NCBI GenBank assembly: GCA_965218095.1
Contig: OZ244587.1
Coordinates: forward strand, 4,000,001 to 4,064,000
Length of the DNA: 64,000 nucleotides
Source of the DNA: Candidatus Poribacteria bacterium
Lineage (GTDB): Bacteria; Poribacteria; WGA-4E; PCPOR2b
Direction: 5' to 3'
Shown here: piece after piece, positions 24,366 through 61,400 of the stretch
Layout of the letters: the number at the start of each line of letters is the position of its first letter
Numbering within the stretch: the first letter of the stretch is position 1
Position numbers and translations under genes: made by a program
The notes under the pieces: generated by a model
Told to the model about the DNA's origin: nothing
What the model saw: the letters and a program-made list of their open reading frames with translations, nothing else
The model's database searches: none

Positions 24366-25188
24366 GGTTCTGTTGACATTTGAGTATAAGGTTGTGGCAT
24401 AATAGAAGAATGATGCCAATAACTTTACCCGATGACCCATGGAAAAAGATATACAGATTTCTTCTAAGTTGCCCCAACATCTATGTTGGCAACGAAGCGA
24501 CAACGCGCCGCTTTGTCGAAGCAGTTCTGTGGGTGACTCGTAGCGGCGCTCAATGGCAGCTTCTGCCAGACACCTACGGTAAATGGAACACCCGCTACAA
24601 GCGGTTTGCTCGATGGTGCGACAAAGATGTTTTGACACAGATGCACCACCACTTCGCCTCTGCGAGTCGATTATTATTGACAGTACCATCTGCTGCGCTC
24701 ACCCGTGTGCGGCGGGCGCCTTAAAAACTGGCGCCTTAAAAAAAGGGTGGGACTGAAAGCCAAGCATTAGGTCGCTCTCAAGGTGGCTTCAGTACAAAAA
24801 ATCACATCGCAGTTGATGGACTGGGCAATCCCCTAAGAATTCATCTGACCCCCGGTCAGAGACACGACATAGTTGAGGCGGAAGGGTTGATAATCGGATA
24901 TAACAGCGAGATGTAATTGGAGACAAGAGATACGATTCGGACGCTTTTATCACGGTTATCAAGGCGAATGGAGCGATTGCGGTGATACCGCCAAAAAGTC
25001 ATCGTGTTGACCAAAGAACGTACGACAAACATTTATACAAAGAGAGACATCGGGTTGAATGTTTCATCAACAAGATAAAATGGTATCGTCGCATCTTCTC
25101 TCGGTTCGAGAAGTTAGCTGTCCGTTATTTTGGATTTCTCAGCTTTGTCTCCACTCTTATATGGCTCCCTTGAAATGTCAATAGAACC
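24366..25188 (+). mobile_element. IS5-family element copy 2, transposase degraded
   Basis: Same terminal IRs (one mismatch); CTAG target with TA duplicated; frameshifts and an internal deletion. Confidence 0.9.
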
Positions 25189-39322: not shown

Positions 39323-39723
39323 TTAGCTGTGAGCATGTATCCCTTGTGTGCCGAGGACGACATTACCGCCGCGGCCATTGGGGAGGAACAGACGCTGAAA
39401 TCCAGCTTTGGCGATTAATCTCACGATGTTTTTATAATCATTAAGGTGTAGATGTGATTGGGAGCGCTCACAGTGCCGGGGAGATCCAGATGATGATCGG
39501 AGGCACCAAGCCACAGTGCTGGCAGCAGATAGATCTGGCCGCTGAGTTGTTGTTCGACCCCTTGTGCGACTGCCGTCACAAGATAGGTGTCCGTCAGCAG
39601 TGGGGAGTGATGCCCATGTTGTTCCATCGATCCAAGCGGAAGGACGACAACTTTGTTTTTATCTGCTTCCTGAATATCACTAAGTTTGGACAATCTTACC
39701 CTCACCAAAATCAGTAATAGCAA
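39323..39723 (-). pseudogene. creatininase family remnant
   Basis: LPLGSMEQHGHH.PL.TD, GASDHH..PGT, then shifted GFQRL...NGRGGN; C-terminal half absent. Confidence 0.75.
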
Positions 39724-43058: not shown

Positions 43059-43877
43059 GTTCTGTTGACATTTCAACGGAGCCATAGTAAGAGTGGAGAC
43101 AAAGCTGAGAAATCCAAAATAACGGATAGCTAACTTCTCGAACCGAGAGAAGATGCGGCGATACCATTTTATCTTGTTAATGAAACATTCAACCAGATGT
43201 CTCTCTTTGTACAGATGTTTGTCGTAATCTCTTTAATCCACACGATGACTTTTGGGCGGTATCACCGCAATCGCTCCATTCGCCTCAATAACAGCGATAA
43301 AATTGTCGGAGTCATATCCCTTGTCTCCAATCACATACTCGCTTTTATATCCAAGTATCAACCCTTCTGCTTCTGCTATGTCGTTTCTTTGACCGGGTGT
43401 CAGATGTATTCTTAGGGGATTACCCAGGCCGTCAACTGTGATGTGAATTTTTGTACTGAATCCCCCGCGAGAGCAGCCTAACGCTTGGTTTTCAGTGCCA
43501 CCCTTTTTTTTCGGCACCCGCCGCACACGGGTGTGCTCGAATGATTGTACTGTCCACAATAAGCGACTCGATATCGGGGTCGGCGGCGAAGTGGGGGTGC
43601 ATCTGTGTGAAGATACCTTTGTCGCACCACCGTGCAAAACGCTTATAGAGGGTGTTCGATTTACCATAGGTGTCTGGCAGAATCCGCCATTGAGCACCGC
43701 TACGGGTCGCCCAGAGAACCGCTTCGATAAAGCGGCGTATTGTCGCTTCGTTGCCAACATAGATATTGGGACAAGTTAGAAGAAACGAGTATATCTTTTT
43801 CCATTGGTTATCGGGTAAGGTTATTGGCATCATTCTTCTATTATGCCACAACCTTATACTCAAATGTCAACAGAACC
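43058..43877 (-). mobile_element. IS5-family element copy 3, transposase split with a premature TAA
   Basis: Perfect 16-bp IRs; CTAA target with TA duplicated. Confidence 0.9.
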
Positions 43878-46405: not shown

Positions 46406-47254
46406 ATGGGAGACTATGTTCACCCTGAAGTGTTAGTGACTACCGACTGGGTTGCGCAGCACGGCAGCGACGCGGGTATTGGCTTGTTGGAAGTGGATGT
46501 GGATACGACAGCTTACGACGAAGGACACATTGAAGGGTCTATTGGACTCAACTGGCAGACCCAACTTTGCGACCAGGTGCGGCGCGACATTTTAACGAAG
46601 GATCAGTTCGACCAGTTGTGCAGCGAGTCTGGCATCAGCAATGACACCACCATTATCTTCTATGGCGACAATAACAACTGGTTCGCCACGTACGCCCTCT
46701 GGCAATTCCGTTACTATGGGCATGACGAGAGCAAGCTGAAGGTGATGGATGGTGGACGCCAGAAATGGATTGATGAAGGCCGTGAGTTAGTAACGGACGT
46801 GCCTTCATATCCTGCCACGAACTACAAAGCGAAATTCCCTGACGACAATGTGCGGGCGACGAAAGACCACATTCTGCCAACGCTCAATCTGGGGGTCATC
46901 AACCTTGTGGACGTGCGCTCTCCGGCGGAGTTCACCGGTGAGATCATTGCACCTCCGGGATTGCCCGAAACCGCGCAGCGCCCCGGACGCATCCCCGGCG
47001 CAGCAAACATTCCGTGGGCGACAGCGGTCGCTGAAAACGGCACCTTCAAGTCTTACGATGAACTCAAGGAGATCTACGAAGGGGCGGGTGTCGATCCGGA
47101 CAACGAGACGATTGCCTACTGCCGCATTGGGGAGCGTTCTTCGCATACGTGGTTTGCCTTGAAGTATCTGTTAGGCTATGAAAAAGTGCGCAATTACGAT
47201 GGTAGCTGGACAGAGTGGGGGAACCTCGTCGGTGCGCCTATCGCCAAAGGTTAA
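46406..47254 (+). CDS. tandem-domain sulfurtransferase (CysA/SseA-like)
   Basis: YDEGHI, LVDVRSPAEF, YCRIGERS, NYDGSWTEW. Confidence 0.92.
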   Translation: MGDYVHPEVLVTTDWVAQHGSDAGIGLLEVDVDTTAYDEGHIEGSIGLNWQTQLCDQVRRDILTKDQFDQLCSESGISNDTTIIFYGDNNNWFATYALWQFRYYGHDESKLKVMDGGRQKWIDEGRELVTDVPSYPATNYKAKFPDDNVRATKDHILPTLNLGVINLVDVRSPAEFTGEIIAPPGLPETAQRPGRIPGAANIPWATAVAENGTFKSYDELKEIYEGAGVDPDNETIAYCRIGERSSHTWFALKYLLGYEKVRNYDGSWTEWGNLVGAPIAKG

Positions 47255-47259
47255 TCGAT

Positions 47260-47312
47260 CGTGAGTTGGTGAGCTCCCGTTTATTTGCCATTTTTGAACT
47301 CACCAACTCACG
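47260..47312. repeat. 14-bp perfect inverted repeat
   Basis: CGTGAGTTGGTGAG ... CTCACCAACTCACG right after the sulfurtransferase stop. Confidence 0.6.
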
Positions 47313-47336
47313 CTTCATCTGAGGTTGGAGTTTGCG

Positions 47337-47615
47337 ATGCCCAAATTTGTTTCCGCCCATATTATCGCCTGCATGACACGGCAGCAAGTGGAAAGATTGG
47401 CCAAGCAGTTTATGGAGGAGGAAAGCGACGGGGTCAAGAGCTTGCGGGTGCAATGTGACACGATGCTTGGTCGGATGGTCTGTGAGTGGGAAGCTCCGGA
47501 TCGAAATACACTCGTCGAGTGGCTGAAAAAGCGTCATGTGCATTTTCGCGGTGGTGGGGAGTGGGTGATGCACGTGCAGATTGAGGCCGTGGAGGGGGAT
47601 GTTGTCCGGCTGTGA
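47337..47615 (+). CDS. DUF4242/SCO4226-like small protein
   Basis: MPKFVSAH...GRMVCEWEAPD. Confidence 0.55.
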   Translation: MPKFVSAHIIACMTRQQVERLAKQFMEEESDGVKSLRVQCDTMLGRMVCEWEAPDRNTLVEWLKKRHVHFRGGGEWVMHVQIEAVEGDVVRL

Positions 47616-47809
47616 TACCGGCTCATCGATTAACAGGACACAAAACAATGAGATAAATCTGCAGTTCGGAGATCCGGGACTGTTCCCACTTATGGAGGGC
47701 GGATACATAGTGTCAATGGTTAGGGAGAGTGAGTCCTACTTCTTTTTAGGGCTGCGCTTTCAAACAGGTGATTGACCACTCAAACATACAAGCAACCTTT
47801 GAAATGAGC

Positions 47810-48113
47810 GCATCATCGATTTATACTGTCCAGATCCAGCGAAATGGATCGATTGGAAAATCCGAAAGGTGACCTGAAAATGACAGAATGTTACTTTTGC
47901 CGAGGTGCAATCCGTCCTCAAAAGATTGATCGCGTTCATCGCTAGGGTAGTCAGATTCTTTTTTTGAAAGAGCTCCCAGCGGAAGTGTGCGAAAACTGCG
48001 GTGAAATCTATTTTGGTCCCGAAGCCTTAAATCTCATGGACGACACAGTGAAAGAAAAAATGCCTGTTATTGAAACCATCCAAATCCCTGTTGTTTCCTT
48101 CGCGTCCTCGTAG
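47810..48113 (+). pseudogene. decayed DUF4258 / YgiT-type zinc finger toxin-antitoxin pair
   Basis: DUF4258-like tail LYCPDPAKWIDWKIR; MTECYFCRG...HR* then shifted PAEVCENCGE.YF...IPVVSF. Confidence 0.75.
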
Positions 48114-48170
48114 AATCAGCGAACCAGCGAATTGTCTTACGTTTCACGCATCACGCAAAGGAACTTCACC

Positions 48171-49040
48171 GTGCATTACCTAACACGCCAGATTGCTTTT
48201 GAAGCCTCACACCATTATCGTATTCTTGAACTCAGCGGTGAGGAGAATTACGCACTTTTTGGATCTCCTGCAAATCCAAACGGTCATGGGCATAACTATG
48301 TCCTTGAGGCAACGGTCAAAGGAAAAGTGAACCCCGAGAATGAGATGGTTATCAATATCACAGATCTGGACAAGGTTCTCAAAGAACAGGTTGTTGCCTA
48401 CTATGATCACAAGCATATCAACATACAGCACCCTACCTTTGTCAATAACCCACATTTGCAACCCACGAGCGAGAACTTAGTGATTCAGATCTGGTACGCG
48501 ATCGAGCCGCATCTGAAGGTTGAACGAAGTGAAATCCTCGATCGAAGATCGGGGAGGACAATCCTGCACTGTATCAGGCTGTATGAAGATTCAACCCTGT
48601 TTGCTGACTATTATGGAGAACGGCAAATGGTCTATCTCACGAAAGTGTACGAATTCAGCGCATCACATCGGTTGCACAGCCCACAACTCAGCAATGAGGA
48701 AAACCAGGAGATCTTCGGCAAGTGTAACAATTTTTACGGTCACGGACACAACTATATACTTGAGGTGACCATTAAGGGTGAGGTTGATCCAAGAACCGGG
48801 ATGATTGCTGATCTGAACTTTCTCGATGAAACGATTCAGAAGCAGGTCTATGGGCGATTCGATCACAAGCATCTTAACCTTGATACCCCTGAGTTTGAGC
48901 ACCTCAACCCGACTTCTGAGAATTTTGTCCGGGTGCTCTGGGATGTTATTGAACCGAGCCTCAAACCCATCAAGTTGCATCGCCTTCGATTGAAGGAGAC
49001 GTCTAAGAACTATTTTGATTACTACGGAGACGCAGTTTAG
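48171..49040 (+). CDS. two-domain 6-pyruvoyl-tetrahydropterin synthase (PTPS/QueD family)
   Basis: Two T-fold units with F.ASH, HGHNY, DHKH and PTSEN; domain 2 has C-X5-HGH. Confidence 0.88.
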   Translation: MHYLTRQIAFEASHHYRILELSGEENYALFGSPANPNGHGHNYVLEATVKGKVNPENEMVINITDLDKVLKEQVVAYYDHKHINIQHPTFVNNPHLQPTSENLVIQIWYAIEPHLKVERSEILDRRSGRTILHCIRLYEDSTLFADYYGERQMVYLTKVYEFSASHRLHSPQLSNEENQEIFGKCNNFYGHGHNYILEVTIKGEVDPRTGMIADLNFLDETIQKQVYGRFDHKHLNLDTPEFEHLNPTSENFVRVLWDVIEPSLKPIKLHRLRLKETSKNYFDYYGDAV

Positions 49041-49043
49041 CCG

Positions 49044-49646
49044 ATGAAGATTTATACTGCCGAATCACTAGAGGATGAAACAATTACCGCCGATCCAAAA
49101 CTTGAATACATCTACGCTCAAATGCTGGAAAGTATCGGCGAGGATCCGACGCGGCAAGGCCTACTTAAAACGCCTCATCGTGCGGCGAAAGCCCTTCACT
49201 TCTTGACGCAAGGCTACCACCAAAATGTCGAGGCAATTTTGAACGGTGCAATCTTTGACGAGGAATACGATGAGATGGTCATCGTTAAGGATATCGAGTT
49301 TTATAGCCTCTGTGAGCATCATATTTTACCATTTTTTGGCAAGTGTCATGTTGGGTATATCCCCCACGAAAAAATCATTGGACTCAGTAAAATCCCGCGG
49401 ATTGTAGATATGTTTTCTCGCCGACTGCAAATTCAAGAAAAGCTGACCCGACAGATTGCGGAAGCGCTGCAAGAAGGACTAAATCCGCTTGGTGTCGCTG
49501 TAGTCATGGAAGCGCGGCACATGTGCATGATGGTTCGTGGTATACAAAAGCAGCACTCGAAAGCGACGACCAACGTGATGCTCGGCGCGTTTCGAGACAA
49601 AAGTTCAACTCGCGCGGAGTTCATGAGATGTATTCAGATCTCATAG
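49044..49646 (+). CDS. folE: GTP cyclohydrolase I
   Basis: [35 protein letters not shown]. Confidence 0.96.
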
Positions 49647-49677
49647 GTAGAGCCGCCCCGTTGCGGGGGATTTCGCT

Positions 49678-50415
49678 ATGCTCAACTTGAAGGGAATGGA
49701 AACGCTGAAGGACAAAGTTGCAATTATTACAGGGGCATCACGCGGCGTTGGTCGAGCAACAACTCTAGCTTTTGCGCAGGCAGGTGCGAAGGTTGTCCTC
49801 GCATCACGCACACGGAAAGAGCTCGAAACGGTTGCAAATCTCATACGCACGAACAGTGGGGAAGCCCTCGTTGTGCCGACAGATGTGACACAGGAAGACG
49901 CGGTGGAAGCCCTGATTGAGCAAACTCTGGAGGCATATCAGCAAATCGATATTCTTGTGAACAACGCGGGAATCGGAATCTTCGAGATGGTAATCGATTC
50001 TGATTCGGAGACGTGGGATCAAGTAATTGACTCAAACCTCAAAAGCGTCTATCTTTGCTCAAGGTATGCACTGCGCTCCATGCTTACGCGTCAATCCGGT
50101 CAAATTATCAATGTGCTGTCGATTGCCGCGAAAATTCCGTTCAAAGCATCGAGCGCGTACTGTGCGGCAAAGGCGGGCGCCCTGGCATTTACGAAGGTTT
50201 TGTCGGAGGAGGTCAGGGATAAGAATATTCGGGTTACGGCTGTTTCCCCCGGATCGATCAAAACTTCATTCTGGGATGACATTGAGCAACACCCAGGTTT
50301 TGAACTGATGTTGAAACCAGAGCATGTTGCGGAAACGATCCTCTTCGCTACGACTCAGCCGGTTGGCATGGTCACTGAAGAAATCGTCGTCACCCCGCCA
50401 CTCGGAATTTTGTAG
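49678..50415 (+). CDS. SDR oxidoreductase, candidate sepiapterin reductase
   Basis: TGASRGVG, NNAG, S...YCAAK; directly follows PTPS and folE. Confidence 0.8.
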   Translation: MLNLKGMETLKDKVAIITGASRGVGRATTLAFAQAGAKVVLASRTRKELETVANLIRTNSGEALVVPTDVTQEDAVEALIEQTLEAYQQIDILVNNAGIGIFEMVIDSDSETWDQVIDSNLKSVYLCSRYALRSMLTRQSGQIINVLSIAAKIPFKASSAYCAAKAGALAFTKVLSEEVRDKNIRVTAVSPGSIKTSFWDDIEQHPGFELMLKPEHVAETILFATTQPVGMVTEEIVVTPPLGIL

Positions 50416-50453
50416 TGGACAGTGCCCCCCGATCTTTGATCGGGGTTAAACCA

Positions 50454-51833
50454 TCACGTGCCACGTCTGATAAAACTGCCAAACTTATTGCGGATGCATA
50501 CCCTGCGAATGCTACGCATATCGGCGTCGGAGATAGTGATATAGAAGGTGTCCATTTCAACCGTCTCCCCCGGTTTGGGAATTGTGCCTGCCTGCTCAAG
50601 GATGTAACCCGCAATTGTTTCGTAATCGCCTGACGGAATTTGCAAGCCGAACTGATCGTTTAATATATCAATTTCCGTGCGTCCCTCGCATTCGAGGATT
50701 CTTGGGCTGATGACGCGGATAAGATGGACTTCATCGCGTTCATCCGAGACCTCACCGACAATCTCTTCGACCAGATCTTCAACGGTGACAAGTCCGACAA
50801 TACCACCATACTCATCGACGACAAACACCATTGTGTGGTGACTTTGTTGAATCTCTTTCAGAAGAACATTGATGTTCTTTGACTCAGGGACGAACTGGAT
50901 GTCCGTGCGGATAAATGTCTGGATGGTTTGCGTGTTCCCGTTTGCATAGATGACATCCAACACATTAACGATTCCGATGATATTATAGATCTGTTCATCG
51001 TAAATCGGTATACGAGAAAAACCGGATTCCGACGTAACCCTGTAGAACGTTTCAATATCCGTCTCCTTCTCTACAGCAACAATATCAACGAGAGGCGCCA
51101 TCACTTGTTCAACAGTGCGGGTTTGCAGGTCGAGGACGCTATGAATCATTTGGCGCTGATCTCTCAGGATTTCGCCGGACTGTTCTCCCATTGTCGCCAA
51201 CAGACGTAATTCATCGCGCCGGGCATCTGGCGAAGTAGATTCAGTGTTTTTGCCGACAATCTTTACGAGAAAATCTGTCAAGTATGTCACAACATTTACG
51301 ATAACGCCTAAGATGATTTCAGAGATTCGTAGCGGATAGGCATAGCGTAAGGTAAGGGCGTTCGCTTTGGCACGGAAGATGGTTTTGGGTAGAAGCTCAC
51401 CAAAGATTAGTACGAGCACTGTTGTGACGCTTGTTGCAACCTGTGTTCGTGTTGCCTCTGATGCATCTAACAGCACGATCACAAGCAATAGCACAAGTTG
51501 TGCGACAATGACGTTCGCCAGATTGGTTCCGACAAGCGTCATTCCAAGCATCTTTTCAGGTCTTTTGAGGAGATCTCTGATAATTTTCGCCCTTTTATTG
51601 TCTTCTTCAGCAAGCCGATTCATCTTGATCTTATCAACGGAGACTAATGCCGTTTCAGATCCGGAGTAGAAAGCAGATAATATTAGGAAAACAACTAGGC
51701 CGAGCGTGAGGAAGGCAATCCAAATGAGACTGGCCACTGTGAGTGAGACGAGGGAATCCAGTGGGGAAGTCGCACCCATTAGAAAACAGCAAAAAATCAA
51801 TAATATGAGGAATTTCAGACGGGGTACTCTCAT
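50454..51833 (-). CDS. CNNM/CorC (hemolysin-family) transporter
   Basis: FYSGSETAL, FGELLPK, CBS pair, VVDEYGG, CorC domain. Confidence 0.9.
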   Translation of the reverse strand: MRVPRLKFLILLIFCCFLMGATSPLDSLVSLTVASLIWIAFLTLGLVVFLILSAFYSGSETALVSVDKIKMNRLAEEDNKRAKIIRDLLKRPEKMLGMTLVGTNLANVIVAQLVLLLVIVLLDASEATRTQVATSVTTVLVLIFGELLPKTIFRAKANALTLRYAYPLRISEIILGVIVNVVTYLTDFLVKIVGKNTESTSPDARRDELRLLATMGEQSGEILRDQRQMIHSVLDLQTRTVEQVMAPLVDIVAVEKETDIETFYRVTSESGFSRIPIYDEQIYNIIGIVNVLDVIYANGNTQTIQTFIRTDIQFVPESKNINVLLKEIQQSHHTMVFVVDEYGGIVGLVTVEDLVEEIVGEVSDERDEVHLIRVISPRILECEGRTEIDILNDQFGLQIPSGDYETIAGYILEQAGTIPKPGETVEMDTFYITISDADMRSIRRVCIRNKFGSFIRRGT

Positions 51834-51835
51834 TT

Positions 51836-53191
51836 TTATTGTCCTAACGTGACGCTATCTGTGCTTTGAGGAAGAGTCATAATCACGGCGCCAATAAGAT
51901 TTCCCTCCATTGCAGCAACCTCAAATCGGAGGCCGTGCTCGTCGATCTGATATTCGCCGACCAATGGGATACGCCCAAAAAGCCCAAAGACATAACCGCC
52001 GATCGTATCTGCAATTCCCTCATCAATTTTCAGGTTAAACTGCTGATTTATCTGTCGCACGCTGACTCGTCCGAAGACCTCAATCACAAAGGAATTATCA
52101 GGGTGCGGAATGATCTCAGGATAAGCCAATGATGTATCATGTTCGTCGATGATGTCCCCGACGACTTCTTCGATAATATCTTCAATGGTGACGAGTCCGG
52201 AAATACCACCATACTCATCTAAAAGAATTGTCATTTCTGTTTTCTCATAGGTGAACTCCGATAGGAGATCGGCAATTTTTTTGGTTTCGAGAACAAAGAA
52301 AGGCGGACGTATAAGATTCGGTTCAGATTGTGTCTGTCTGAAAGCGTGACGTTTGATGAGAAAATCCTCAACTGTCACGTTTCTAATGTCTGTGTCTCGC
52401 CATAGGGGAATATCTTTGACGTGGAAAACGCCACAGATATTGTCGATCTGTTTCCGGTAGAGCGGGATACGGGAGAGACCAGCTTCCCTTGCTTTATCTA
52501 ATACTTCCTGGATTATGGTAGAGGACTCCATCGCGACCATTTCGGTTCGCGGCACCATAATCTCTTTGGCTTCAATCTCACGGAGTTCGAGGATGTTGCC
52601 TAAGATTTCACGCTCATCGGCTTGCAACGTTCCTTCCTCATGCGTATTGACAATTGCCTTGAAATCTTCTGCGGTGATACGGTCTTCTCTGGGAATATGA
52701 CTTCCGCCAAATAGTGGTATTAAAAGATTGGTGATACCCCGTAGAACGGTGCGTAAAGGGGAAATTAGCACGGAAAAGTTCCAAAGTGGACGTGCTGTGA
52801 TTCTGGAAAACCCTTCTGCGTATTTAATCGCATACGTTTTGGGAGTAATTTCCCCAACAATCAACAGCAGTAATGTAATGAGGACGGTTGCGGTAACAAT
52901 GGCGGGCACCGAAGGTCCTTGACCGAACAAATTGTAAATAAGGGAGGCGAAGATTGTCGCAAAGCCGGTGTTAATGAAGGTGTTTCCAAGCAGGATGGTG
53001 ATGAACAATCGGCGAGGATTGTCTACGAAATTGACGATCGCAGCGGCGCTTTTTCTCTTTTCGTTGCGGAGACGTTCAATCTGCACCTTGTTCAGGGCAC
53101 ACAGAGCCGTCTCAGAACCAGAGAAAAAACCAGATAAAAATAGGAGCAGCCCCAATCCAATTAAATGGGGCAAAAGCTGGTCAACTTCCAT
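51836..53191 (-). CDS. CNNM/CorC (hemolysin-family) transporter
   Basis: FFSGSETAL, GEITPK, MVPR, LDEYGG, TIGGY. Confidence 0.9.
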   Translation of the reverse strand: MEVDQLLPHLIGLGLLLFLSGFFSGSETALCALNKVQIERLRNEKRKSAAAIVNFVDNPRRLFITILLGNTFINTGFATIFASLIYNLFGQGPSVPAIVTATVLITLLLLIVGEITPKTYAIKYAEGFSRITARPLWNFSVLISPLRTVLRGITNLLIPLFGGSHIPREDRITAEDFKAIVNTHEEGTLQADEREILGNILELREIEAKEIMVPRTEMVAMESSTIIQEVLDKAREAGLSRIPLYRKQIDNICGVFHVKDIPLWRDTDIRNVTVEDFLIKRHAFRQTQSEPNLIRPPFFVLETKKIADLLSEFTYEKTEMTILLDEYGGISGLVTIEDIIEEVVGDIIDEHDTSLAYPEIIPHPDNSFVIEVFGRVSVRQINQQFNLKIDEGIADTIGGYVFGLFGRIPLVGEYQIDEHGLRFEVAAMEGNLIGAVIMTLPQSTDSVTLGQ

Positions 53192-54207: not shown

Positions 54208-56187
54208 ATGATGCAGATGCAAATAAACGGACTCGTTTTAGGAAAATATCGTATTGAGAAACTGATTAACAACGGCAGTTTTGCCTCTGTTTTTCGGGCG
54301 AAAGAGGAGCTTACCAACCGTACAGTTGCCATCAAAACGCTGCCCAAATCCATCTACCCCGCAGGGCGGATGCGTTACCTGCTTACCGAACTGAGTGCGA
54401 TGGGGAGGAATTGGGGGCATCCGAACATCGTTTCCATCCATACCGTTGAACCCGGCGATGGCGAATACGTTGCGTATATTGTCATGGAGTACATTGATGG
54501 TCCCAGCTTGCGACGGTTGATGACAATGAAGCCTCCTGTTCCTCATTTGGCGATCAATATTGCCTTAGATATTTGCCGGGGGCTGATTGCGGCTCATGAA
54601 CATAACATTATCCACCGAGACATCAAGCCGCAAAATATTTTGCTGACTTCTGACCAAACAGCGAAGATCGCTGACTTCGGGGTAGCACGTATCCTTGAGG
54701 CAACCGGCGACTATGCTGGAACAATTACCGGGACACGGAAGTACATGGCGCCTGAGCAGTATGAAGGAAGTTACGATTATCGGGCGGACCTCTATTCAGC
54801 GGGGCTGATTCTCTATGAAATGCTCATGGGGAGATTTCCATTTCGAGGGAAAACGCATGATGAGGTCCAGATGAGGAAGCGATGCGAAGAGCTCGTGCTC
54901 GTATTCAACAGCGAACTCTTCGACGGTTTATGCGAACTTTTACAAAAGGCGTTGCATCGAGATGTGGAAGCGCGGTATCAAACGGCTACGGAGATGTATG
55001 ATGACTTAGATCATATTCGTAAAAAACGGTATACAGACACCGTATGGAAAACAATGACCGGTTACTCGAACCCGGCCCTACAGCGTGCAACGTTATCTGA
55101 ATATAGAGAGAATTTACGGCTCTCCACCGAAGTTGCGGAGAAAATCGAATTGGAAACACGCCACAAGCAGGAGGCGGAAGCAGAGCAACGGGAGCAGCAT
55201 AAACTGAAAAAGCACGTCAATGTGCACTATGATCAGGCAATTCAATATGTCCGCTCAACTCAGCCGCAGACGGCATTGCAGGAGATGCAACAAGCGCACC
55301 GTCTCTACTTGAGTGATGTCCAAGCAACGAAGAAAGCGGATTGGATATTCCGGAATTTATCCGATTTGATTGTTCCCCCCAAATCTCCCTCTACAGCAAA
55401 AGATCTGATCGATTTAATCGATCAATTGCCGGTTGACGAAATGTCGGCGCTCAAAGCATGGTTTTATGATCAATTTTTCCTCAGTGAACCGAGCGAACCT
55501 TCTTCTATCTTGGACTCGGATGTGGATGACACAGACAGTCATACCAGTTCCGGTTTGACGCCTCAAACCCTCAATCCGGAAGAGCCTGTTCCGGAATTCG
55601 TTTTGCAGAAACTTCATGAGGTGGTTCAAAATCCCCATGAGATGATTGCCGCCCAGATCCGTCAATCAGCTGAAGAATGTGCACAAGGCGGAAAAAGTAG
55701 ACGAGCCCGTGCGGAGTACAAAAAGCTTGGGGAATTTTATAGGAAATCCGCTGCGAACTTTATTGAATCGGGGGATTGGGGGTTGATTGCAGATTGTCAT
55801 GCGCGAGCACGGCTTGCCTACACAGCGGCTTGTCGTTCCGGTCGTGCGCGGCAGAGCGCACGGGAGGCGGGCAACTACTATGTGATGCTGGCAGACCTCC
55901 TTGAAAGACAACAGGATTGGGCGGAAGCCGGCAGGTTGTACGCACTTGCGGCAGAACATTACGCCCACGCCGGCCTGTCGGAGGAACCTGATGAAAGTCG
56001 GTTGCGTGCAACGATCTGCTATTTCAATGTCGCCGAAAATGCGCGTGCCGCAGGGAATCTCAATCTGGCTTACGATTATTGTGATAAAACGTTGATGATC
56101 TCGGAAGAGATGCAAAGAGCTTCCAATGCTGTGACGGGTGCACGAAAACTGATTCAGGAAATTGAAGGGCTTTTTACTGCAAGCTAG
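54208..56187 (+). CDS. Hanks-type Ser/Thr protein kinase with helical-repeat C-terminus
   Basis: VAIK, HRDIKPQN, DFG, YMAPE; TPR-like C-terminal helices; no TM segment seen. Confidence 0.88.
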   Translation: MMQMQINGLVLGKYRIEKLINNGSFASVFRAKEELTNRTVAIKTLPKSIYPAGRMRYLLTELSAMGRNWGHPNIVSIHTVEPGDGEYVAYIVMEYIDGPSLRRLMTMKPPVPHLAINIALDICRGLIAAHEHNIIHRDIKPQNILLTSDQTAKIADFGVARILEATGDYAGTITGTRKYMAPEQYEGSYDYRADLYSAGLILYEMLMGRFPFRGKTHDEVQMRKRCEELVLVFNSELFDGLCELLQKALHRDVEARYQTATEMYDDLDHIRKKRYTDTVWKTMTGYSNPALQRATLSEYRENLRLSTEVAEKIELETRHKQEAEAEQREQHKLKKHVNVHYDQAIQYVRSTQPQTALQEMQQAHRLYLSDVQATKKADWIFRNLSDLIVPPKSPSTAKDLIDLIDQLPVDEMSALKAWFYDQFFLSEPSEPSSILDSDVDDTDSHTSSGLTPQTLNPEEPVPEFVLQKLHEVVQNPHEMIAAQIRQSAEECAQGGKSRRARAEYKKLGEFYRKSAANFIESGDWGLIADCHARARLAYTAACRSGRARQSAREAGNYYVMLADLLERQQDWAEAGRLYALAAEHYAHAGLSEEPDESRLRATICYFNVAENARAAGNLNLAYDYCDKTLMISEEMQRASNAVTGARKLIQEIEGLFTAS

Positions 56188-58478: not shown

Positions 58479-61400
58479 ATGAAAACAACCTTGACGTTAC
58501 TTGTTCTTTTAACCCTGTTTTCACGAAACACCTTCGCCCAAGATTCCCCACAATGGCACCTACCCGAAGGTGTCAAAGCGCGCCTCGGCAAAGGCTGGAT
58601 AAGAGAAATAACGTATTCCCCGGACGGAAATCGCTTGGCGGTCGCCAGCAATATAGGGATTTGGATATACGATGCGCGCAGCGGTGAAGAACTTGACCTC
58701 CTCACGGGGCATACGTCCTGGGTCAATAGTGTCGCGTTCAGCCCTGATGGTGGCACGCTGGCGAGTGGGAGTCGGGACAATACGGTGCGGCTATGGGATG
58801 CCGTCACGGGGCGGCACAAAGCCACACTCACGGGGCATATATACTCGGTCTTGAGTGTTGCGTTCAGTCCCGATGGCGGCACGCTGGCGAGTGGGAGTGG
58901 GGATAAAATGGTGCGGCTGTGGGATGCCGTCACGGGGCGGCACAAAGCCACACTCACGGGGCATACGGACTCGGTCAATAGCGTATCGTTCAGTCCCGAT
59001 GGCGGCACGCTGGCGAGTGGGAGTGGGGATAAAATGGTGCGGCTGTGGGATGCCGTCACAGGGGGGCAAACCACACTCACGGGGCATACGGGGAGGGTCA
59101 ATAGTGTCGCGTTCAGCCCCGATGGCGGCACGCTGGCGAGTGGGAGTGACGACCATACGGTGCGGCTATGGGATGCCGTCACGGGGGGGCAAACCACACT
59201 CACGGAGCATACGGGGAGGGTCAATAGTGTCGCGTTCAGCCCCGATGGCGGCACGCTAGCAAGTGGGAGTGACGACCATACGGTGCGGCTATGGGATGCC
59301 GTCACGGGGGGGCAAACCACACTCACGGGGCATACGGGGAGGGTCAATAGTGTCGCGTTCAGCCCCGATGGCGGCACGCTGGCAAGTGGGAGTGACGACC
59401 ATACGGTGCGGCTATGGGATGCCGTCACAGGGGAGCAAACCACACTCACGGAGCATACGGGGAGGGTCAATAGTGTCGCATTCAGCCCCGATGGCGGCAC
59501 GCTGGCAAGTGGGAGTGACGACCATATGGTGCGGCTATGGGATGCCGTCACGGGGCGGCACAAAAAAACACTCACGGGGCATACGGGGAGGGTCAATAGT
59601 GTCGCGTTCAGCCCCGATGGCGGCACGCTGGCAAGTGGGAGTGACGACCATATGGTGCGGCTATGGGATGCCGTCACGGGGCGGCACAAAAAAACACTCA
59701 CGGGGCATACGTACTGGGTCTTGAGTGTCGCGTTCAGCCCCGATGGCGGCACGCTGGCGAGTGGGAGTCGGGACAATACGGTGCGGCTATGGGATGCCGT
59801 CACGGGGCGGCACAAAAAAACACTCACGGGGCATACGTCCTGGGTCAATAGTGTTGCGTTCAGCCCCGATGGCGGCACGCTGGCGAGTGGGAGTTCCGAC
59901 ACGGTGCGGCTATGGGATGCCGTCATGGGGGGGCACAAAGCCACGGAGCATACGAGGAGGGTCAATAGTGTCGCGTTCAGCCCCGATGGCGGCACGCTGG
60001 CGAGTGGGAGTTCCGACGGCACGGTGTGGCTGTGGGATGCCGTCACGGGGCGCAAAACCATACTCACGGGCACGGGGCGGCACAAAGTCAAACTCACGGG
60101 GCATACGAGGAGGGTCAATAGTGTCGCGTTCAGCCCCGATGGTGGCACGCTGGCGAGTGGGAGTTGGGACGAGACGGTGCGGCTATGGGATGCCGTCACG
60201 GGGGGGCACAAAGCCACACTCACGGGGCATACGTACTGGGTCTTGAGTGTCGCGTTCAGTCCCGATGGCGGCACGCTGGCGAGTGGGAGTTTCGACGGTA
60301 CGGTGCTCCTGTGGGAGCTCACACCGTCTGCCACCACGAACGCCGTTGTGAGTATCTCTCCCGCCTCGGTACAATCTCCGGCTATCGGAGAACCACTCAC
60401 ACTTGCCCTGAATATCGCAGATGGGGAAACCGTGGCAGGGTATCAGGCAACCGTGGGGTTCGATAAGACAGCACTCCGCTATGTGGAGAGCGCCAACGGT
60501 GATTATCTGCCTGATGGCGCGTTTGCGGTGCCCGCGGTTGTCTCAGGGACCGCGGTTGTCTCAGGGAATAGAGTAACGCTCGCGGCAACATCTCTCGCCG
60601 GAGAAAGCAACGGGGATGGCACGCTTGCCACCCTCACCTTTGAGGTTGTCGCCGTCAAGGCATCCACCTTGATCTTATCCGAAGTCATCCTCTCTGACAG
60701 CACTGGTGAAGCTTCGTGGCCTCGCGTTAAAAGCGGGCGGGTGGTCGAACCGCCACAGGTTGTTGGGGATGTCAATGGGGATGGGGTTGTGAACATTTTG
60801 GATTTGGCGCTCGTTGGCTCAAGTTTCGGGCAGACGGGGCAGAATGATGCGGATGTCAACGGGGATGGCGTTGTCAATATCGTTGACCTTGTCCTCGTTG
60901 CCAGCGCCTTCGATGCGGGGGCAGCCGCGCCTTCCGCACATCCACAGACACCGGCGATGCTCACCGCAGCAGACGTGCACCAGTGGCTCACCCAAGCGCA
61001 GCAAATGGCGCTGACAGATTCTGACTATCAGCGTGGCATTGCCGTGCTGGAACAACTCCTCGCGGCGTTGACCCCGAAAGAGACGGCACTATTGCCAAAC
61101 TACCCGAATCCGTTCAATCCGGAGACGTGGATACCATATCGCCTCGCTGAGGCTGCCGATGTAACGCTCACGATTTATGACACAAAAGGCGCGACGGTGC
61201 GTCGGTTGGAGCTTGGTCATCAGCCGGTGGGCTTCTACACCGCTCGGGCAAAGGCGGCGTATTGGGATGGCTGCAACGAAAGTGGGGAATCGGTGGCAAG
61301 CGGTTTGTATTTCTATCAACTCCGGGTGGGGCGCTCTGGACTCTCGGTGCCTCACCGGAGGGATTATACCGCGTTACGGCGGATGGTGATTCTAAAATAA
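58479..61400 (+). CDS. secreted WD40-repeat protein with cohesin-like, dockerin and FlgD-like C-terminal domains
   Basis: Signal peptide; 13 near-identical WD40 repeats plus one divergent; GYQATV.FD..AL.Y cohesin-like domain; two DVNGDGVVNI.DL motifs; LLPNYPNPFNPETWIPY...WDG.NE.GE.VASG.YFY. Confidence 0.9.
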   Translation: MKTTLTLLVLLTLFSRNTFAQDSPQWHLPEGVKARLGKGWIREITYSPDGNRLAVASNIGIWIYDARSGEELDLLTGHTSWVNSVAFSPDGGTLASGSRDNTVRLWDAVTGRHKATLTGHIYSVLSVAFSPDGGTLASGSGDKMVRLWDAVTGRHKATLTGHTDSVNSVSFSPDGGTLASGSGDKMVRLWDAVTGGQTTLTGHTGRVNSVAFSPDGGTLASGSDDHTVRLWDAVTGGQTTLTEHTGRVNSVAFSPDGGTLASGSDDHTVRLWDAVTGGQTTLTGHTGRVNSVAFSPDGGTLASGSDDHTVRLWDAVTGEQTTLTEHTGRVNSVAFSPDGGTLASGSDDHMVRLWDAVTGRHKKTLTGHTGRVNSVAFSPDGGTLASGSDDHMVRLWDAVTGRHKKTLTGHTYWVLSVAFSPDGGTLASGSRDNTVRLWDAVTGRHKKTLTGHTSWVNSVAFSPDGGTLASGSSDTVRLWDAVMGGHKATEHTRRVNSVAFSPDGGTLASGSSDGTVWLWDAVTGRKTILTGTGRHKVKLTGHTRRVNSVAFSPDGGTLASGSWDETVRLWDAVTGGHKATLTGHTYWVLSVAFSPDGGTLASGSFDGTVLLWELTPSATTNAVVSISPASVQSPAIGEPLTLALNIADGETVAGYQATVGFDKTALRYVESANGDYLPDGAFAVPAVVSGTAVVSGNRVTLAATSLAGESNGDGTLATLTFEVVAVKASTLILSEVILSDSTGEASWPRVKSGRVVEPPQVVGDVNGDGVVNILDLALVGSSFGQTGQNDADVNGDGVVNIVDLVLVASAFDAGAAAPSAHPQTPAMLTAADVHQWLTQAQQMALTDSDYQRGIAVLEQLLAALTPKETALLPNYPNPFNPETWIPYRLAEAADVTLTIYDTKGATVRRLELGHQPVGFYTARAKAAYWDGCNESGESVASGLYFYQLRVGRSGLSVPHRRDYTALRRMVILK
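58701..60317 (+). repeat. 13 tandem near-identical intragenic repeats of about 123-126 bp
   Basis: Recurring GTTCAGCCCCGATGGCGGCACGCTGGCGAGTGGGAGT and GTGCGGCTATGGGATGCCGTCACGGGG. Confidence 0.95.

What the first reader, a model, noticed from the sequence alone, without database searches (positions are those of the whole stretch)
48171..50415. Probable tetrahydrobiopterin operon: PTPS-II, FolE and a sepiapterin-reductase-like SDR
Seen: three tightly linked genes. PTPS domain 2 has CNNFYGHGH (C-X5-HGH); domain 1 lacks the Cys. Known: C-X5-HGH marks the BH4-type PTPS-II, whereas QueD has C-X3-HGH and folate-type PTPS-III has E-X2-HGH; GCH1, PTPS and SPR make up the BH4 pathway. From recall, the SDR C-terminal half (S.AA...F..SS.YC..K, PG...T..W, QP...V.EEI...P..G) resembles Chlorobium sepiapterin reductase. 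Inference: this organism makes BH4 or an isomer, which is uncommon in bacteria and relevant if it lives in an animal host. An automated pipeline would likely label it queD/folate.
Basis: partly seen in the sequence, partly recalled or inferred. Interest (0 to 1): 0.72.

Follow-up and report, generated by a model that had tools for sequence, protein, structure and literature searches.

The report
Probable biopterin operon in a Poribacteria genome
Three adjacent genes in a bacterium of the sponge-associated phylum Poribacteria look like a complete pathway from GTP to tetrahydrobiopterin or a stereoisomer of it, a cofactor better known from animals, but no enzyme activity has been tested.

Summary
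Three same-strand genes lie 3 and 31 nt apart: a two-domain PTPS (48171-49040), FolE (49044-49646) and a 245-aa SDR (49678-50415).

PTPS domain 2 carries CNNFYGHGH, the published PTPS-II signature. It resembles rat PTPS (3e-34) far more than E. coli QueD (3e-12). Domain 1 lacks the Cys.

The window belongs to Candidatus Poribacteria. All 80 related loci are Poribacteria-type MAGs, and 78 of them keep PTPS-FolE-SDR in this order while the flanking genes change.

The SDR is a generic NADP-type reductase by whole-length score. However, it keeps the two pterin-stacking residues of Chlorobium sepiapterin reductase (Phe99 and Trp196), invariant in 21 of 21 orthologues. A profile of its F/W subfamily ranks that enzyme as the best single-domain solved relative; a control profile does not.

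Best reading (about 0.6): a GTP to 6-pyruvoyl-H4-pterin to tetrahydrobiopterin pathway, possibly the L-threo isomer.

Caveats:
- There is no biochemistry.
- Synteny outside the phylum could not be tested.
- More than 100 SDR clusters score closer than the Chlorobium enzyme.

This is a new member of a known kind and is of moderate interest.

The parts
48171..49040 (+). Two-domain (bimodular) 6-pyruvoyl-tetrahydropterin synthase, 289 aa from the GTG at 48171. An upstream TTG at 48132 would add 13 non-conserved residues.
   Evidence: PF01242 at 1.8e-57 in 2 stretches. TIGR00039 scores 150.8 against a cut-off of 125.5. The start agrees with orthologues. The AF2 model has pLDDT 89.6 and pTM 0.86. 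The best fold matches are rat, human and C. elegans PTPS, with TM 0.89-0.92 normalised to the target.
48171..48614 (+). PTPS domain 1 (residues 1-148). It is Cys-less but keeps three His, Asp79-His80 and Glu139. A 12-residue loop insertion lies at about residues 117-128.
   Evidence: Counts over 81 sequences, the window plus 80 loci. The Cys42-equivalent is A 63, T 13, S 3, P 1, I 1. The Asp88-His89 equivalents are D in 81 of 81 and H in 81 of 81. The His48 and His50 equivalents are H in 81 of 81. Mean pairwise identity is 77%. pLDDT is below 50 at residues 122-127.
48615..49037 (+). PTPS domain 2 (residues 149-289), of the animal PTPS-II type.
   Evidence: Rat PTPS 1b66 matches at 3.1e-34 over residues 162-299 of the 302-aa ORF, against 2.6e-12 for E. 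coli QueD 4ntm. Cys185 is present in 81 of 81 and Asp231 in 81 of 81. Residue 232, the His89 equivalent, is H in 18, Y in 60 and F in 3.
48723..48749 (+). C-x5-HGH signature (CNNFYGHGH) of PTPS-II.
   Evidence: Translated. The motif definition comes from passages of PMC5041015.
48405..48410 (+). Asp79-His80 of domain 1. I propose that they complete the catalytic triad with Cys185 of domain 2. This is inference.
   Evidence: Both are invariant in 81 of 81 sequences. That the triad spans subunits in rat PTPS is recalled from the literature and was not seen here.
49044..49646 (+). GTP cyclohydrolase I (FolE, zinc type), 200 aa.
   Evidence: TIGR00063 scores 259.5 against a cut-off of 181.6. PF01227 matches at 2.9e-75. 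CEHH at residue 90 and HMCMM at residue 159 are seen directly. The start lies 3 nt after the PTPS stop.
49678..50415 (+). 245-aa NADP-type short-chain reductase, the candidate sepiapterin / 6-pyruvoyl-H4-pterin reductase of the Chlorobium type.
   Evidence: PF00106 at 2.8e-59. None of the 25 NCBIfam families shown reaches its cut-off; the best is NF005672 at 216.8 against 234. 2bd0 ranks 14th with the single sequence, 4th with the orthologue profile and 2nd with the F/W-subfamily profile. The AF2 model has pLDDT 85.6.
49981..49983 (+). Phe102, aligned with Phe99 of Chlorobium sepiapterin reductase.
   Evidence: Alignment printed. Invariant in 21 of 21 Poribacteria orthologues. Its role in the Chlorobium enzyme comes from passages of PMC7520308.
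50272..50274 (+). Trp199, aligned with Trp196 of Chlorobium sepiapterin reductase.
   Evidence: Alignments printed. Invariant in 21 of 21 orthologues.
50119..50172 (+). The Ser148 / Tyr161 / Lys165 catalytic triad of the SDR. TGASRGVG (49729-49752) and Arg44 form the NADP(H) site.
   Evidence: Translated. Invariant in A2.
50416..50453 (.). GC-rich hairpin (CCCCGATC-TTT-GATCGGGG) between the convergent SDR and CNNM genes. It is the likely end of the transcription unit.
   Evidence: Read directly from the sequence. The terminator scan did not report it.

Best explanation
This is a three-gene unit of a Candidatus Poribacteria genome that converts GTP into a tetrahydrobiopterin-type pterin.

Step 1. 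FolE makes 7,8-dihydroneopterin triphosphate. The family assignment is shown; the chemistry follows from established knowledge of FolE.

Step 2. The two-domain PTPS converts that product to 6-pyruvoyl-tetrahydropterin. Domain 2 supplies the Zn site and the catalytic Cys185. I infer that domain 1, which has lost the Cys but keeps an invariant Asp-His, supplies the rest of the triad across the domain interface. On that reading a trimer of the two-domain protein would mimic the animal homohexamer with half the sites active.

Step 3. The adjacent NADPH-dependent SDR reduces the two side-chain carbonyls. It holds the pterin between Phe102 and Trp199, as Chlorobium sepiapterin reductase does between Phe99 and Trp196. 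The product may therefore be the L-threo isomer rather than the animal L-erythro BH4. This step is inference from sequence.

The use of the product is not shown. It could be a cofactor of a pterin-dependent hydroxylase, the aglycone of a pterin glycoside, or something exchanged with the sponge host.
For: 1. The genes are real and tightly linked, with gaps of 3 and 31 nt on one strand.

2. The PTPS-II signature C-x5-HGH is present in domain 2. It is present in all 81 Poribacteria sequences examined and in 120 of 120 listed two-domain homologues. The motif definition is the published one (PMC5041015 passages).

3. The solved relatives of the PTPS are ordered animal PTPS (3e-34 to 3e-29), then P. 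aeruginosa and E. coli QueD-type (3e-14 to 1e-11). The fold search gives the same order.

4. Active-site loss is complementary between the domains. Domain 1 has Cys in 0 of 81 and Asp-His in 81 of 81. Domain 2 has Cys in 81 of 81 and the His89 equivalent in only 18 of 81. Both domains are conserved, at 77% and 83% mean pairwise identity.

5. Synteny holds in 78 of 80 loci, which have PTPS-FolE-SDR in order on one strand. One of the two exceptions is a contig end. The downstream neighbour changes: a KDPG-aldolase gene follows the SDR directly in L001-L016, and a CNNM pair follows it in most others. The rhodanese/orf96 genes are missing upstream in 7 loci, one of which has only 602 nt of flank.

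6. For the SDR, Phe102 = Phe99 and Trp199 = Trp196 of 2bd0. Both are invariant in 21 of 21 orthologues, and both are described as indispensable for substrate binding in the Chlorobium enzyme (PMC7520308 passages). 2bd0 is 2nd of 242 matches for the C-terminal half. It is 4th of 527 for the orthologue profile, where it is the only full-length alignment among the top four. It is the best single-domain match, at 235 bits against 208 for FabG 4rzh, for the profile of the window protein plus 32 F/W representatives. It is absent from the best 60 for a control profile of 35 representatives that lack both residues.

7. The SDR is not FabG by NCBIfam: TIGR01830 scores 171 against a cut-off of 298.

8. 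Both the PTPS and the SDR have their nearest out-of-phylum relatives in Armatimonadota. This is a weak lead for co-distribution.
Against: No activity has been measured for any of the three proteins.

Over its whole length the SDR scores as well or better against FabG-type reductases. With the single sequence, 4rzh reaches 3.5e-44 against 2.3e-34 for 2bd0. With the orthologue profile the scores are 192 and 183 bits.

All 150 best 50%-identity clusters score 205 bits or more, above the 183 bits of the Chlorobium enzyme.

The F+W pair occurs in only 32 of the 107 single-domain representatives among them. On a weakly supported tree it needs at least 4 origins or losses. It therefore marks a broad subfamily of unknown substrates, not sepiapterin reductases specifically. 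Selecting representatives by F/W also biases somewhat towards 2bd0.

The fold search does not discriminate: 2bd0 ranks 7th with a TM-score equal to that of FabGs.

The whole neighbourhood, not only the trio, is largely syntenic within the phylum. Adjacency alone is therefore weak evidence. One locus (L043) has no SDR within 5.4 kb downstream, and two loci carry 3.6-3.9 kb of unrelated genes between FolE and the SDR.

The window holds no pterin-dependent hydroxylase, pterin-4a-carbinolamine dehydratase or pteridine glycosyltransferase among the 57 ORFs scanned.

NCBIfam's QueD equivalog model is passed, at 116.1 against 89.25.
Confidence: 0.6

Rival explanations
1. PTPS and FolE do make 6-pyruvoyl-H4-pterin, but the neighbouring SDR acts on an unrelated carbonyl substrate. 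It sits there only because gene order is conserved across the phylum. The final pterin would then be made by other reductases, or would be a different compound such as a sepiapterin-like or glycosylated pterin.
For: Whole-length scores favour generic ketoacyl reductases. None of the 25 NCBIfam families shown reaches its cut-off. The F/W pair is found in 32 of 107 nearest clusters of unknown function. The FolE-SDR spacer is variable, with a median of 82.5 nt and a range of 10 to 3863 nt, against a median of 14 nt for PTPS-FolE. L043 lacks the SDR. None of the 41 long relatives is fused to a PTPS or FolE domain.
Against: The trio stays together in 78 of 80 loci while both flanks change. Phe99/Trp196 and the C-terminal QP..V.EEI...P..G tail of the Chlorobium enzyme are kept and invariant. 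The subfamily profile picks 2bd0 as the best single-domain solved relative, while the control profile does not list it in its best 60.
Confidence: 0.22
2. The two-domain protein is a QueD-type 6-carboxy-tetrahydropterin synthase, working with FolE in queuosine/preQ0 synthesis, as NCBI's naming implies.
For: TIGR03367 (QueD equivalog) scores 116.1 against a cut-off of 89.25. NCBI names some orthologues '6-carboxytetrahydropterin synthase'. FolE is also the first enzyme of that pathway.
Against: The motif is C-x5-HGH, not C-x3-HGH. QueD structures are far more distant than animal PTPS, at 2.6e-12 against 3.1e-34. In the plasmid collection, annotated or unannotated QueD-like genes reach only 31-37% identity over one domain in all 12 matching records. 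The QueD model's score is summed over two stretches. No QueC or QueE family was found among the 57 window ORFs scanned.
Confidence: 0.07
3. The protein is a PTPS-III-like folate enzyme that replaces dihydroneopterin aldolase (FolB) and makes 6-hydroxymethyl-dihydropterin.
For: It is clustered with FolE, which also feeds folate synthesis. Among the 120 best single-domain relatives, 6 also carry E-x2-HGH.
Against: Neither domain of the window protein has Glu three residues before HGH (PANPNGHGH and CNNFYGHGH). Plasmodium PTPS-III-type structures are remote fold matches, with TM 0.57-0.60 normalised to the target and E 4e-4 or worse.
Confidence: 0.03

Closest known systems
Bimodular bacterial PTPS (bPTPS-II) of cyanobacteria such as Synechococcus sp. 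PCC 7942 (Kong et al. 2006, FEBS Lett 580:4900). I saw the title in a reference list and a description in PMC5041015 passages. The paper itself is not held.
   Same: Both are bacterial PTPS-II with two PF01242 domains in one chain. The cyanobacterial enzyme was shown to have true PTPS activity in an organism that makes a BH4 glycoside. The ESM Atlas places a 319-aa PTPS cluster, commonest in Cyanobacteriota, among the three nearest clusters.
   Different: The phylum differs. Orthology to the cyanobacterial enzyme was not tested by a tree here. Whether the cyanobacterial gene sits beside folE and an F/W-type SDR could not be checked. The complementary loss of Cys in domain 1 and His in domain 2 is documented here for Poribacteria only.
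Chlorobium (Chlorobaculum) tepidum sepiapterin reductase, PDB 2bd0, which makes L-threo-tetrahydrobiopterin.
   Same: Both are about 240 aa, with NADP-type TGxxxGxG plus Arg and a Ser-Tyr-Lys triad. Phe99 and Trp196 are conserved, the C-terminal tail is similar, and identity is 32% over 240 columns with TM 0.88.
   Different: Sequence relatedness is only moderate, and many uncharacterised SDR clusters lie closer. Activity and stereochemistry are unknown. A tree that includes the Chlorobium enzyme could not be built.
Animal de novo BH4 pathway (GCH1, PTPS, SPR).
   Same: The same three chemical steps are predicted. The PTPS C-domain aligns over its whole length with rat and human PTPS, at 41-44% identity in the fold alignment.
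   Different: The animal PTPS is a single-domain homohexamer. The animal SPR belongs to another SDR branch: no chain named as a mammalian sepiapterin reductase appears in the best 60. In animals the genes are not clustered.
QueD (PTPS-I), 6-carboxy-tetrahydropterin synthase of queuosine synthesis.
   Same: It has the same T-fold, the same Zn-binding His triad and the same substrate, and it is also partnered with FolE.
   Different: QueD has C-x3-HGH, is a single domain of about 120 aa, is clustered with queC/queE, and is far more distant in sequence.

Membership tests
PTPS-II (BH4-type 6-pyruvoyl-tetrahydropterin synthase, COG0720 subfamily) | Signature CxxxxxHGH | tested here: met
   Domain 2 reads CNNFYGHGH. 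Cys is present in 81 of 81 Poribacteria sequences. The definition comes from PMC5041015 passages.
PTPS-II (BH4-type 6-pyruvoyl-tetrahydropterin synthase, COG0720 subfamily) | Three Zn-binding His, and Asp-His completing the Cys triad. The residue numbers His23/48/50, Cys42, Asp88 and His89 are recalled. They were mapped onto the rat chain through the alignment. | tested here: met
   The His48 and His50 equivalents are H in 81 of 81 in both domains. The His23 equivalent is H in 80 of 81 in domain 1 and 81 of 81 in domain 2. Asp-His is invariant in domain 1. In domain 2, Asp is invariant but His is kept in only 18 of 81.
PTPS-II (BH4-type 6-pyruvoyl-tetrahydropterin synthase, COG0720 subfamily) | Closer to characterised animal PTPS than to QueD or PTPS-III | tested here: met
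   One search gives 3.1e-34 for rat PTPS against 2.6e-12 for E. coli QueD. One search gives TM 0.91 and 44% identity for rat, 0.84-0.88 and 34-36% for QueD, and 0.57-0.60 for the Plasmodium enzymes.
PTPS-II (BH4-type 6-pyruvoyl-tetrahydropterin synthase, COG0720 subfamily) | Forms 6-pyruvoyl-tetrahydropterin from dihydroneopterin triphosphate | not testable with these tools
   An enzyme assay is needed.
Bimodular bPTPS-II (cyanobacterial type) | Two PTPS domains in one polypeptide | tested here: met
   PF01242 matches in 2 stretches. The two halves are 43% identical to each other. The model has two T-fold units with pTM 0.86.
Bimodular bPTPS-II (cyanobacterial type) | Orthology with the characterised Synechococcus PCC 7942 enzyme | not tested
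The only lead is the Atlas cluster of 319-aa PTPS proteins, commonest in Cyanobacteriota.
QueD / PTPS-I | Signature CxxxHGH | tested here: not met
   Neither domain has Cys four residues before HGH.
QueD / PTPS-I | NCBIfam equivalog TIGR03367 above its cut-off | tested here: met
   It scores 116.1 against 89.25, summed over two stretches. Given the motif and the PDB ranking, I read this as a false positive of the model on a two-domain protein.
QueD / PTPS-I | Clustering with queC / queE | tested here: not met
   No QueC or QueE family was found among the 57 ORFs of the window that were scanned. The rest of the genome was not available.
PTPS-III (folate, FolB bypass) | Signature ExxHGH | tested here: not met
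   The residue three before HGH is P in domain 1 and F in domain 2.
GTP cyclohydrolase I FolE (type IA) | NCBIfam equivalog TIGR00063 above its cut-off, and the Zn-binding Cys/His motifs | tested here: met
   It scores 259.5 against 181.6. CEHH and HMCMM are present. That these motifs bind Zn is recalled.
Chlorobium-type sepiapterin reductase | Pterin ring held between Phe99 and Trp196 | tested here: met
   Phe102 and Trp199 align with them. Both are invariant in 21 of 21 orthologues. Their role comes from PMC7520308 passages. The pair is not specific, since 32 of the 107 nearest clusters share it.
Chlorobium-type sepiapterin reductase | Classical SDR core with NADP(H) preference: TGxxxGxG, Arg after strand 2, and Ser-Tyr-Lys | tested here: met
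   TGASRGVG, Arg44, Ser148, Tyr161 and Lys165 are present. All are invariant in A2.
Chlorobium-type sepiapterin reductase | Closest characterised relative is the Chlorobium enzyme (a phylogenetic criterion) | tested here: inconclusive
   2bd0 ranks 14th, 4th, 2nd for the C-terminal half and 2nd for the F/W profile, where it is the best single-domain match. It ranks 7th by fold. All 150 listed clusters score higher than it. No tree with the Chlorobium enzyme could be built.
Chlorobium-type sepiapterin reductase | Reduces sepiapterin / 6-pyruvoyl-H4-pterin to L-threo-BH4 | not testable with these tools
   An enzyme assay and chiral HPLC are needed.
Animal-type sepiapterin reductase | Sequence membership in the eukaryotic SPR branch | tested here: not met
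   No chain named as a mammalian sepiapterin reductase appears among the best 60. NCBIfam showed only its best 25 of 237 families, and none of those is an SPR model.
FabG (3-oxoacyl-ACP reductase) | NCBIfam equivalog TIGR01830 above its cut-off | tested here: not met
   It scores 171.2 against 297.75. The other FabG models shown are also below their cut-offs.
FolM / PTR1 pteridine reductases | TGxxxRxG variant of the nucleotide-binding motif (recalled from the literature) | tested here: not met
   The window has the canonical TGASRGVG. No pteridine reductase or dihydromonapterin reductase chain appears in the best 60.

The most novel reading that the evidence does not exclude
Poribacteria, nearly phylum-wide, would carry a self-contained operon for L-threo-tetrahydrobiopterin, a stereoisomer known from few organisms. 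Its PTPS would be a pseudo-heteromer: the active site is split between a Cys-less N-domain that donates Asp-His and a C-domain that donates Cys and Zn, so only half of the ancestral sites remain. The pterin, or a glycoside of it, would be a currency or signal between symbiont and sponge. Sponge cells use pterin-dependent hydroxylases; a sponge phenylalanine hydroxylase is cited in PMC6356464.
Probability: 0.15. Interest if true: 0.65.

Novelty: new member of a known kind. Interest (0 to 1): 0.42.

Why it matters
If true, BH4-type pterin synthesis, known in bacteria mainly from cyanobacteria and green sulfur bacteria, extends to a major uncultivated sponge-symbiont phylum. There it forms a compact, conserved three-gene unit that could be expressed directly.

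It gives a concrete candidate for a bacterial sepiapterin reductase family, the F/W-type short SDRs, of which only the Chlorobium enzyme has been characterised.

It flags a systematic misnaming. NCBIfam's QueD model passes on two-domain PTPS-II proteins, and the reductase is named only 'SDR family oxidoreductase'.

It offers a natural experiment on how a homo-oligomeric active site degenerates after a tandem duplication.

I found no paper linking Poribacteria with tetrahydrobiopterin. The search for both words gave 0 papers. The search for 'pterin' anywhere gave 23 papers, of which 12 were listed. The two whose passages I read concern molybdopterin and methanopterin. A search combining Poribacteria with hydroxylase, dehydratase and queuosine terms listed no paper holding 'Poribacteria' among its 10 rows, out of 164 papers.

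Tried and rejected
- A tblastn of the PTPS against the plasmid collection, tried to find clusters outside the phylum, found 12 records. All were QueD-type, whether annotated or not, at 31-37% identity over one domain. It was of no use for synteny.
- The ESM Atlas search for the SDR returned only generic SDR clusters from many phyla.
- The fold search of the SDR model ranked 2bd0 7th, with TM-scores equal to those of FabGs. Fold does not discriminate within this family.
- Rosetta-stone fusions were looked for. All 41 relatives longer than 300 aa are double or triple SDRs, and none has a PTPS or FolE domain.
- A riboswitch or other RNA was looked for. Rfam at E <= 1 over 47200-50700 gave one chance-level snoRNA match.
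- The promoter and terminator scan found 4 promoter-like sites against 4.2 expected and 1 terminator-like site against 3.2 expected, so it is not informative.
- The F/W state on a FastTree of 114 SDRs is clustered, needing 10 changes against 32.5 in shuffles. It is not one clade, and only 13 of 111 inner branches are well supported.
- A tree with the Chlorobium reductase and other characterised sepiapterin reductases was not built. Those sequences were available only as printed PDB alignments, not as stored proteins.
- Kong et al. 2006 and the Thony et al. 2000 review are not held. A search for the PTPS triad residues found nothing relevant. The inter-subunit nature of the triad therefore rests on recall.
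- Complex prediction was not used. A trimer of a PTPS would be expected to pass by likeness to solved hexamers and would not show which domains face each other.
- The single genome-contig scan returned only Poribacteria-type loci: 80 kept of 162 relatives. Synteny in other phyla stayed unchecked.


Full report
**What is there**

Between 48.1 and 50.4 kb the + strand carries three ORFs: 48132/48171-49040, 49044-49646 and 49678-50415.
- The first matches Pfam PTPS (PF01242) at 1.8e-57 in two stretches.
- The second matches GTP_cyclohydroI at 2.9e-75.
- The third matches adh_short at 2.8e-59.

NCBIfam agrees for FolE (TIGR00063, 259.5 against a cut-off of 181.6). It also agrees for the PTPS/QueD superfamily model (TIGR00039, 150.8 against 125.5). 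None of the 25 SDR families it shows for the third protein reaches its cut-off; the best is NF005672 at 216.8 against 234, and FabG TIGR01830 scores 171.2 against 297.75.

It coincides with the N-terminus of all orthologues and of a 289-aa protein that is 99% identical.

The gaps between the genes are 3 and 31 nt. A GC-rich hairpin lies between the SDR stop and the convergent CNNM gene.

**The organism**

The single scan of one-genome-per-species contigs matched 191 stretches, of which 162 encode a relative, and 80 loci were kept. Of these, 79 are titled Candidatus or uncultured Poribacteria, and one is titled 'uncultured bacterium'.

The named protein homologues are also from Poribacteria or from the Geodia barretti sponge assembly.

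The rest of the window fits that phylum as I recall it. It holds PhyH dioxygenases, xylose-isomerase-like TIM barrels, a 973-aa WD40 protein, a Ser/Thr kinase and IS4/5 transposases.

**The PTPS**

Domain 2 reads CNNFYGHGH and domain 1 reads PANPNGHGH. The subfamily signatures are given in passages of Zallot et al. 2016 (PMC5041015):
- PTPS-II has CxxxxxHGH.
- PTPS-I/QueD has CxxxHGH.
- PTPS-III has ExxHGH.

Against solved structures the C-domain matches as follows:
- rat PTPS at 3.1e-34
- human PTPS at 6e-31
- C. elegans PTPS at 3.3e-29
- the P. aeruginosa homologue at 2.6e-14
- E. coli QueD at 2.6e-12

A confident two-domain model (pLDDT 89.6, pTM 0.86) gives the same order by fold.

In the plasmid collection only QueD-type genes matched. 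All 12 records reached 31-37% identity over one domain.

NCBIfam's QueD equivalog nevertheless passes its cut-off, at 116.1 against 89.25 summed over two stretches. That explains why NCBI names some orthologues '6-carboxytetrahydropterin synthase'.

**A split active site (inference)**

I mapped the rat residues onto both domains through the alignment. The residue numbers are recalled. I then counted residues in the window protein plus the 80 locus proteins.

| Position (rat numbering) | Domain 1 | Domain 2 |
|---|---|---|
| Cys42 | never Cys (A 63, T 13, S 3, P 1, I 1) | Cys in 81 of 81 |
| Asp88-His89 | D-H in 81 of 81 | Asp in 81 of 81; His in 18, Tyr in 60, Phe in 3 |
| Zn-binding His48, His50 | H in 81 of 81 | H in 81 of 81 |
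| Glu133 | E in 81 of 81 | E in 81 of 81 |

Both domains are under constraint. Mean pairwise identity is 77% for domain 1 and 83% for domain 2, and the two domains are 43% identical to each other.

In rat PTPS the Cys-Asp-His triad is, as I recall from the crystallographic papers, formed between subunits of the two stacked trimers. I could not see those papers.

If so, the complementary pattern means that Cys185 of domain 2 works with Asp79-His80 of domain 1. The reciprocal site has decayed. A trimer of the two-domain protein would then replace the homohexamer. This step is inferred, not shown.

**Synteny**

In 78 of the 80 loci PTPS, FolE and the SDR follow each other on one strand.
- The median gaps are 14 nt (PTPS-FolE) and 82.5 nt (FolE-SDR).
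- L075 ends 35 nt after FolE and is uninformative.
- L043 has WD40, M20-peptidase and aminotransferase genes on the other strand instead of the SDR.
- L026 and L032 carry 3.6 and 3.9 kb of unrelated ORFs between FolE and the SDR.

The flanks are less stable.
- In L001-L016 a KDPG-aldolase gene follows the SDR directly. In most other loci, and in the window, two CNNM/CorC genes lie between.
- The rhodanese and orf96 genes upstream are missing in 7 loci, one of which has only 602 nt of upstream flank.

The trio is therefore the most stable block. All of this evidence is within one phylum, where gene order is generally conserved.

**The SDR**

With the single sequence, FabG of Synechocystis (4rzh) is the best solved match at 3.5e-44. 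Chlorobium sepiapterin reductase 2bd0 is 14th at 2.3e-34, although it aligns end to end.

Three further tests favour the Chlorobium enzyme.
- The C-terminal, substrate-binding half ranks 2bd0 second of 242 matches, at 2.2e-13. It follows an uncharacterised Thermus SDR.
- A profile of 21 Poribacteria orthologues ranks 2bd0 fourth of 527, at 183.3 bits against 192.2 for 4rzh. That alignment places Phe102 on Phe99 and Trp199 on Trp196. Both residues are invariant in the 21 orthologues, as are the Ser-Tyr-Lys triad and Arg44.
[quoted passage not shown] The titles in its reference list tie that mode to L-threo-BH4.

**How specific is that?**

A profile search of 1.84 billion 50%-identity representatives returned 150 listed hits at 205 bits or more. 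All score above the 183 bits of the Chlorobium enzyme.
- 41 of them are longer than 300 aa. All are double or triple SDRs, and none has a PTPS or FolE domain.
- Of the 107 single-domain ones (200-290 aa), 32 have both Phe and Trp.
- The state is clustered on a tree, needing 10 changes against 32.5 in shuffles, with 0 of 500 shuffles as low. It is not one clade, and the tree is weakly supported.

A profile of the window protein plus those 32 representatives makes 2bd0 the best single-domain solved match. It scores 235.1 bits, against 230.4 for the metagenomic SDR 3rkr and 207.7 for FabG 4rzh. Only a protein with two SDR domains scores higher.

A control profile of 35 representatives lacking both residues is led by FabGs and does not list 2bd0 among its best 60.

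The selection on two columns favours 2bd0 by construction. My estimate is that this accounts for only about a third of the roughly 36-bit swing relative to 4rzh.

The fold comparison does not discriminate.

The nearest out-of-phylum relative, P0123 at about 50% identity, is an Armatimonadota 'SDR family oxidoreductase'. The nearest Atlas cluster of the PTPS is also commonest in Armatimonadota, followed by a cyanobacterial cluster of 319 aa.

My conclusion is that the SDR belongs to a subfamily of short NADP-dependent reductases whose only characterised member I could identify is the Chlorobium sepiapterin reductase. Its substrate is not proven.

**What it most likely does**

GTP is converted to H2-neopterin triphosphate by FolE, then to 6-pyruvoyl-H4-pterin by PTPS, then to a tetrahydrobiopterin by the SDR. 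The Chlorobium-type binding residues make the L-threo isomer a reasonable guess. I put this at about 0.6.

The rivals are:
- an unrelated SDR beside a true PTPS-FolE pair (about 0.22)
- QueD function (about 0.07)
- a FolB bypass (about 0.03)

The window holds no consumer of the cofactor and no pteridine glycosyltransferase among the 57 ORFs scanned. No riboswitch precedes the genes.

**Comparison with what is known, and novelty**

Bacterial BH4 synthesis with single- or dual-domain PTPS orthologues is established for cyanobacteria and green sulfur bacteria. I saw the title of Kong et al. 2006 and its description in PMC5041015. That paper's authors predicted about 50 bacterial genomes to take part in BH4 synthesis.

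PTPS-II-type genes now appear much more common.
- 1946 single-domain relatives of the C-domain reach E <= 1e-15. All 120 listed carry C-x5-HGH, and they are named from Paenibacillus, Terriglobales, Planctomycetes and others.
- 5586 proteins of two-domain length reach E <= 1e-10.

I found no paper that connects Poribacteria with tetrahydrobiopterin.

This is a new member of a known kind: a known pathway in a new phylum, in an unusually tidy operon. The reductase assignment and the split active site would each be worth a bench test.

Noticed in passing
window 47616-48170 (ORF remnant 47880-48113, + strand): The spacer between orf96 and the PTPS gene is 555 nt here, against about 60-90 nt in most related loci. 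It contains a 77-codon Cys-x2-Cys ... Cys-x2-Cys zinc-finger ORF with an in-frame TAG after codon 21. The ORF resembles MqsA/YgiT-type antitoxins only weakly (PF15731, E 0.03). It is probably a decayed insertion.
   Followed up: partly
window 47325-47615 (+): A 96-aa ORF lies directly upstream of the PTPS gene. It is conserved at 56-86% identity in 73 of 80 loci. Its only family match is sub-threshold, to the nickel-responsive SCO4226-like family (PF14026, E 0.026, 15.2 bits against a cut-off of 28.5). It may be co-transcribed with the pterin genes in relatives, where the gap is short.
   Followed up: partly
window 48171-49040; NCBIfam TIGR03367: NCBIfam's QueD equivalog model passes its curated cut-off (116.1 against 89.25) on this C-x5-HGH two-domain protein, because two domains add up. 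This is the likely cause of the '6-carboxytetrahydropterin synthase' names on Poribacteria and on many single-domain C-x5-HGH proteins.
   Followed up: partly
window about 48519-48554 (PTPS residues about 117-128): A 12-residue insertion (VERSEILDRRSG) lies in a loop of PTPS domain 1. In the 21-row alignment it is shared only with P0001 and, in another form, P0003. It is modelled with pLDDT below 50.
   Followed up: no
window 49647-49677: The FolE-SDR spacer holds a short GC hairpin (CCCCG-TTG-CGGGG) without a T run. This spacer varies from 10 to several hundred nt in relatives, unlike the tight PTPS-FolE junction.
   Followed up: no
window 6608-7414 (+), 24380-24724 (+), 43233-43760 (-): There is one full-length and two partial IS4/5-family transposase ORFs. 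The 114-aa one has only the DUF4096 part, and the 175-aa one has only part of the DDE domain.
   Followed up: no
window 8469-9839 and 9799-10122 (-); 39421-39723 (-); 21976-22863 (-): Three ORFs match only part of their family profiles. The sodium:solute symporter starts at profile position 65, with a 107-aa ORF just upstream. The creatininase covers positions 6-88 of 238. Lar_N covers positions 87-198 of 204. These may be split or truncated genes.
   Followed up: no
window 50454-53191 (-): Two tandem CNNM/CorC-type (CBS-domain) transporter genes lie between the SDR and the KDPG-aldolase gene. The 16 loci closest by PTPS identity (L001-L016) lack this pair, although more distant ones have it.
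   Followed up: partly
window 54208-56187 (+) and 58479-61400 (+): There is a Ser/Thr protein kinase with a long non-kinase C-terminal part, and a 973-aa protein made almost entirely of WD40 repeats. These are eukaryote-like repeat and signalling proteins.
   Followed up: no
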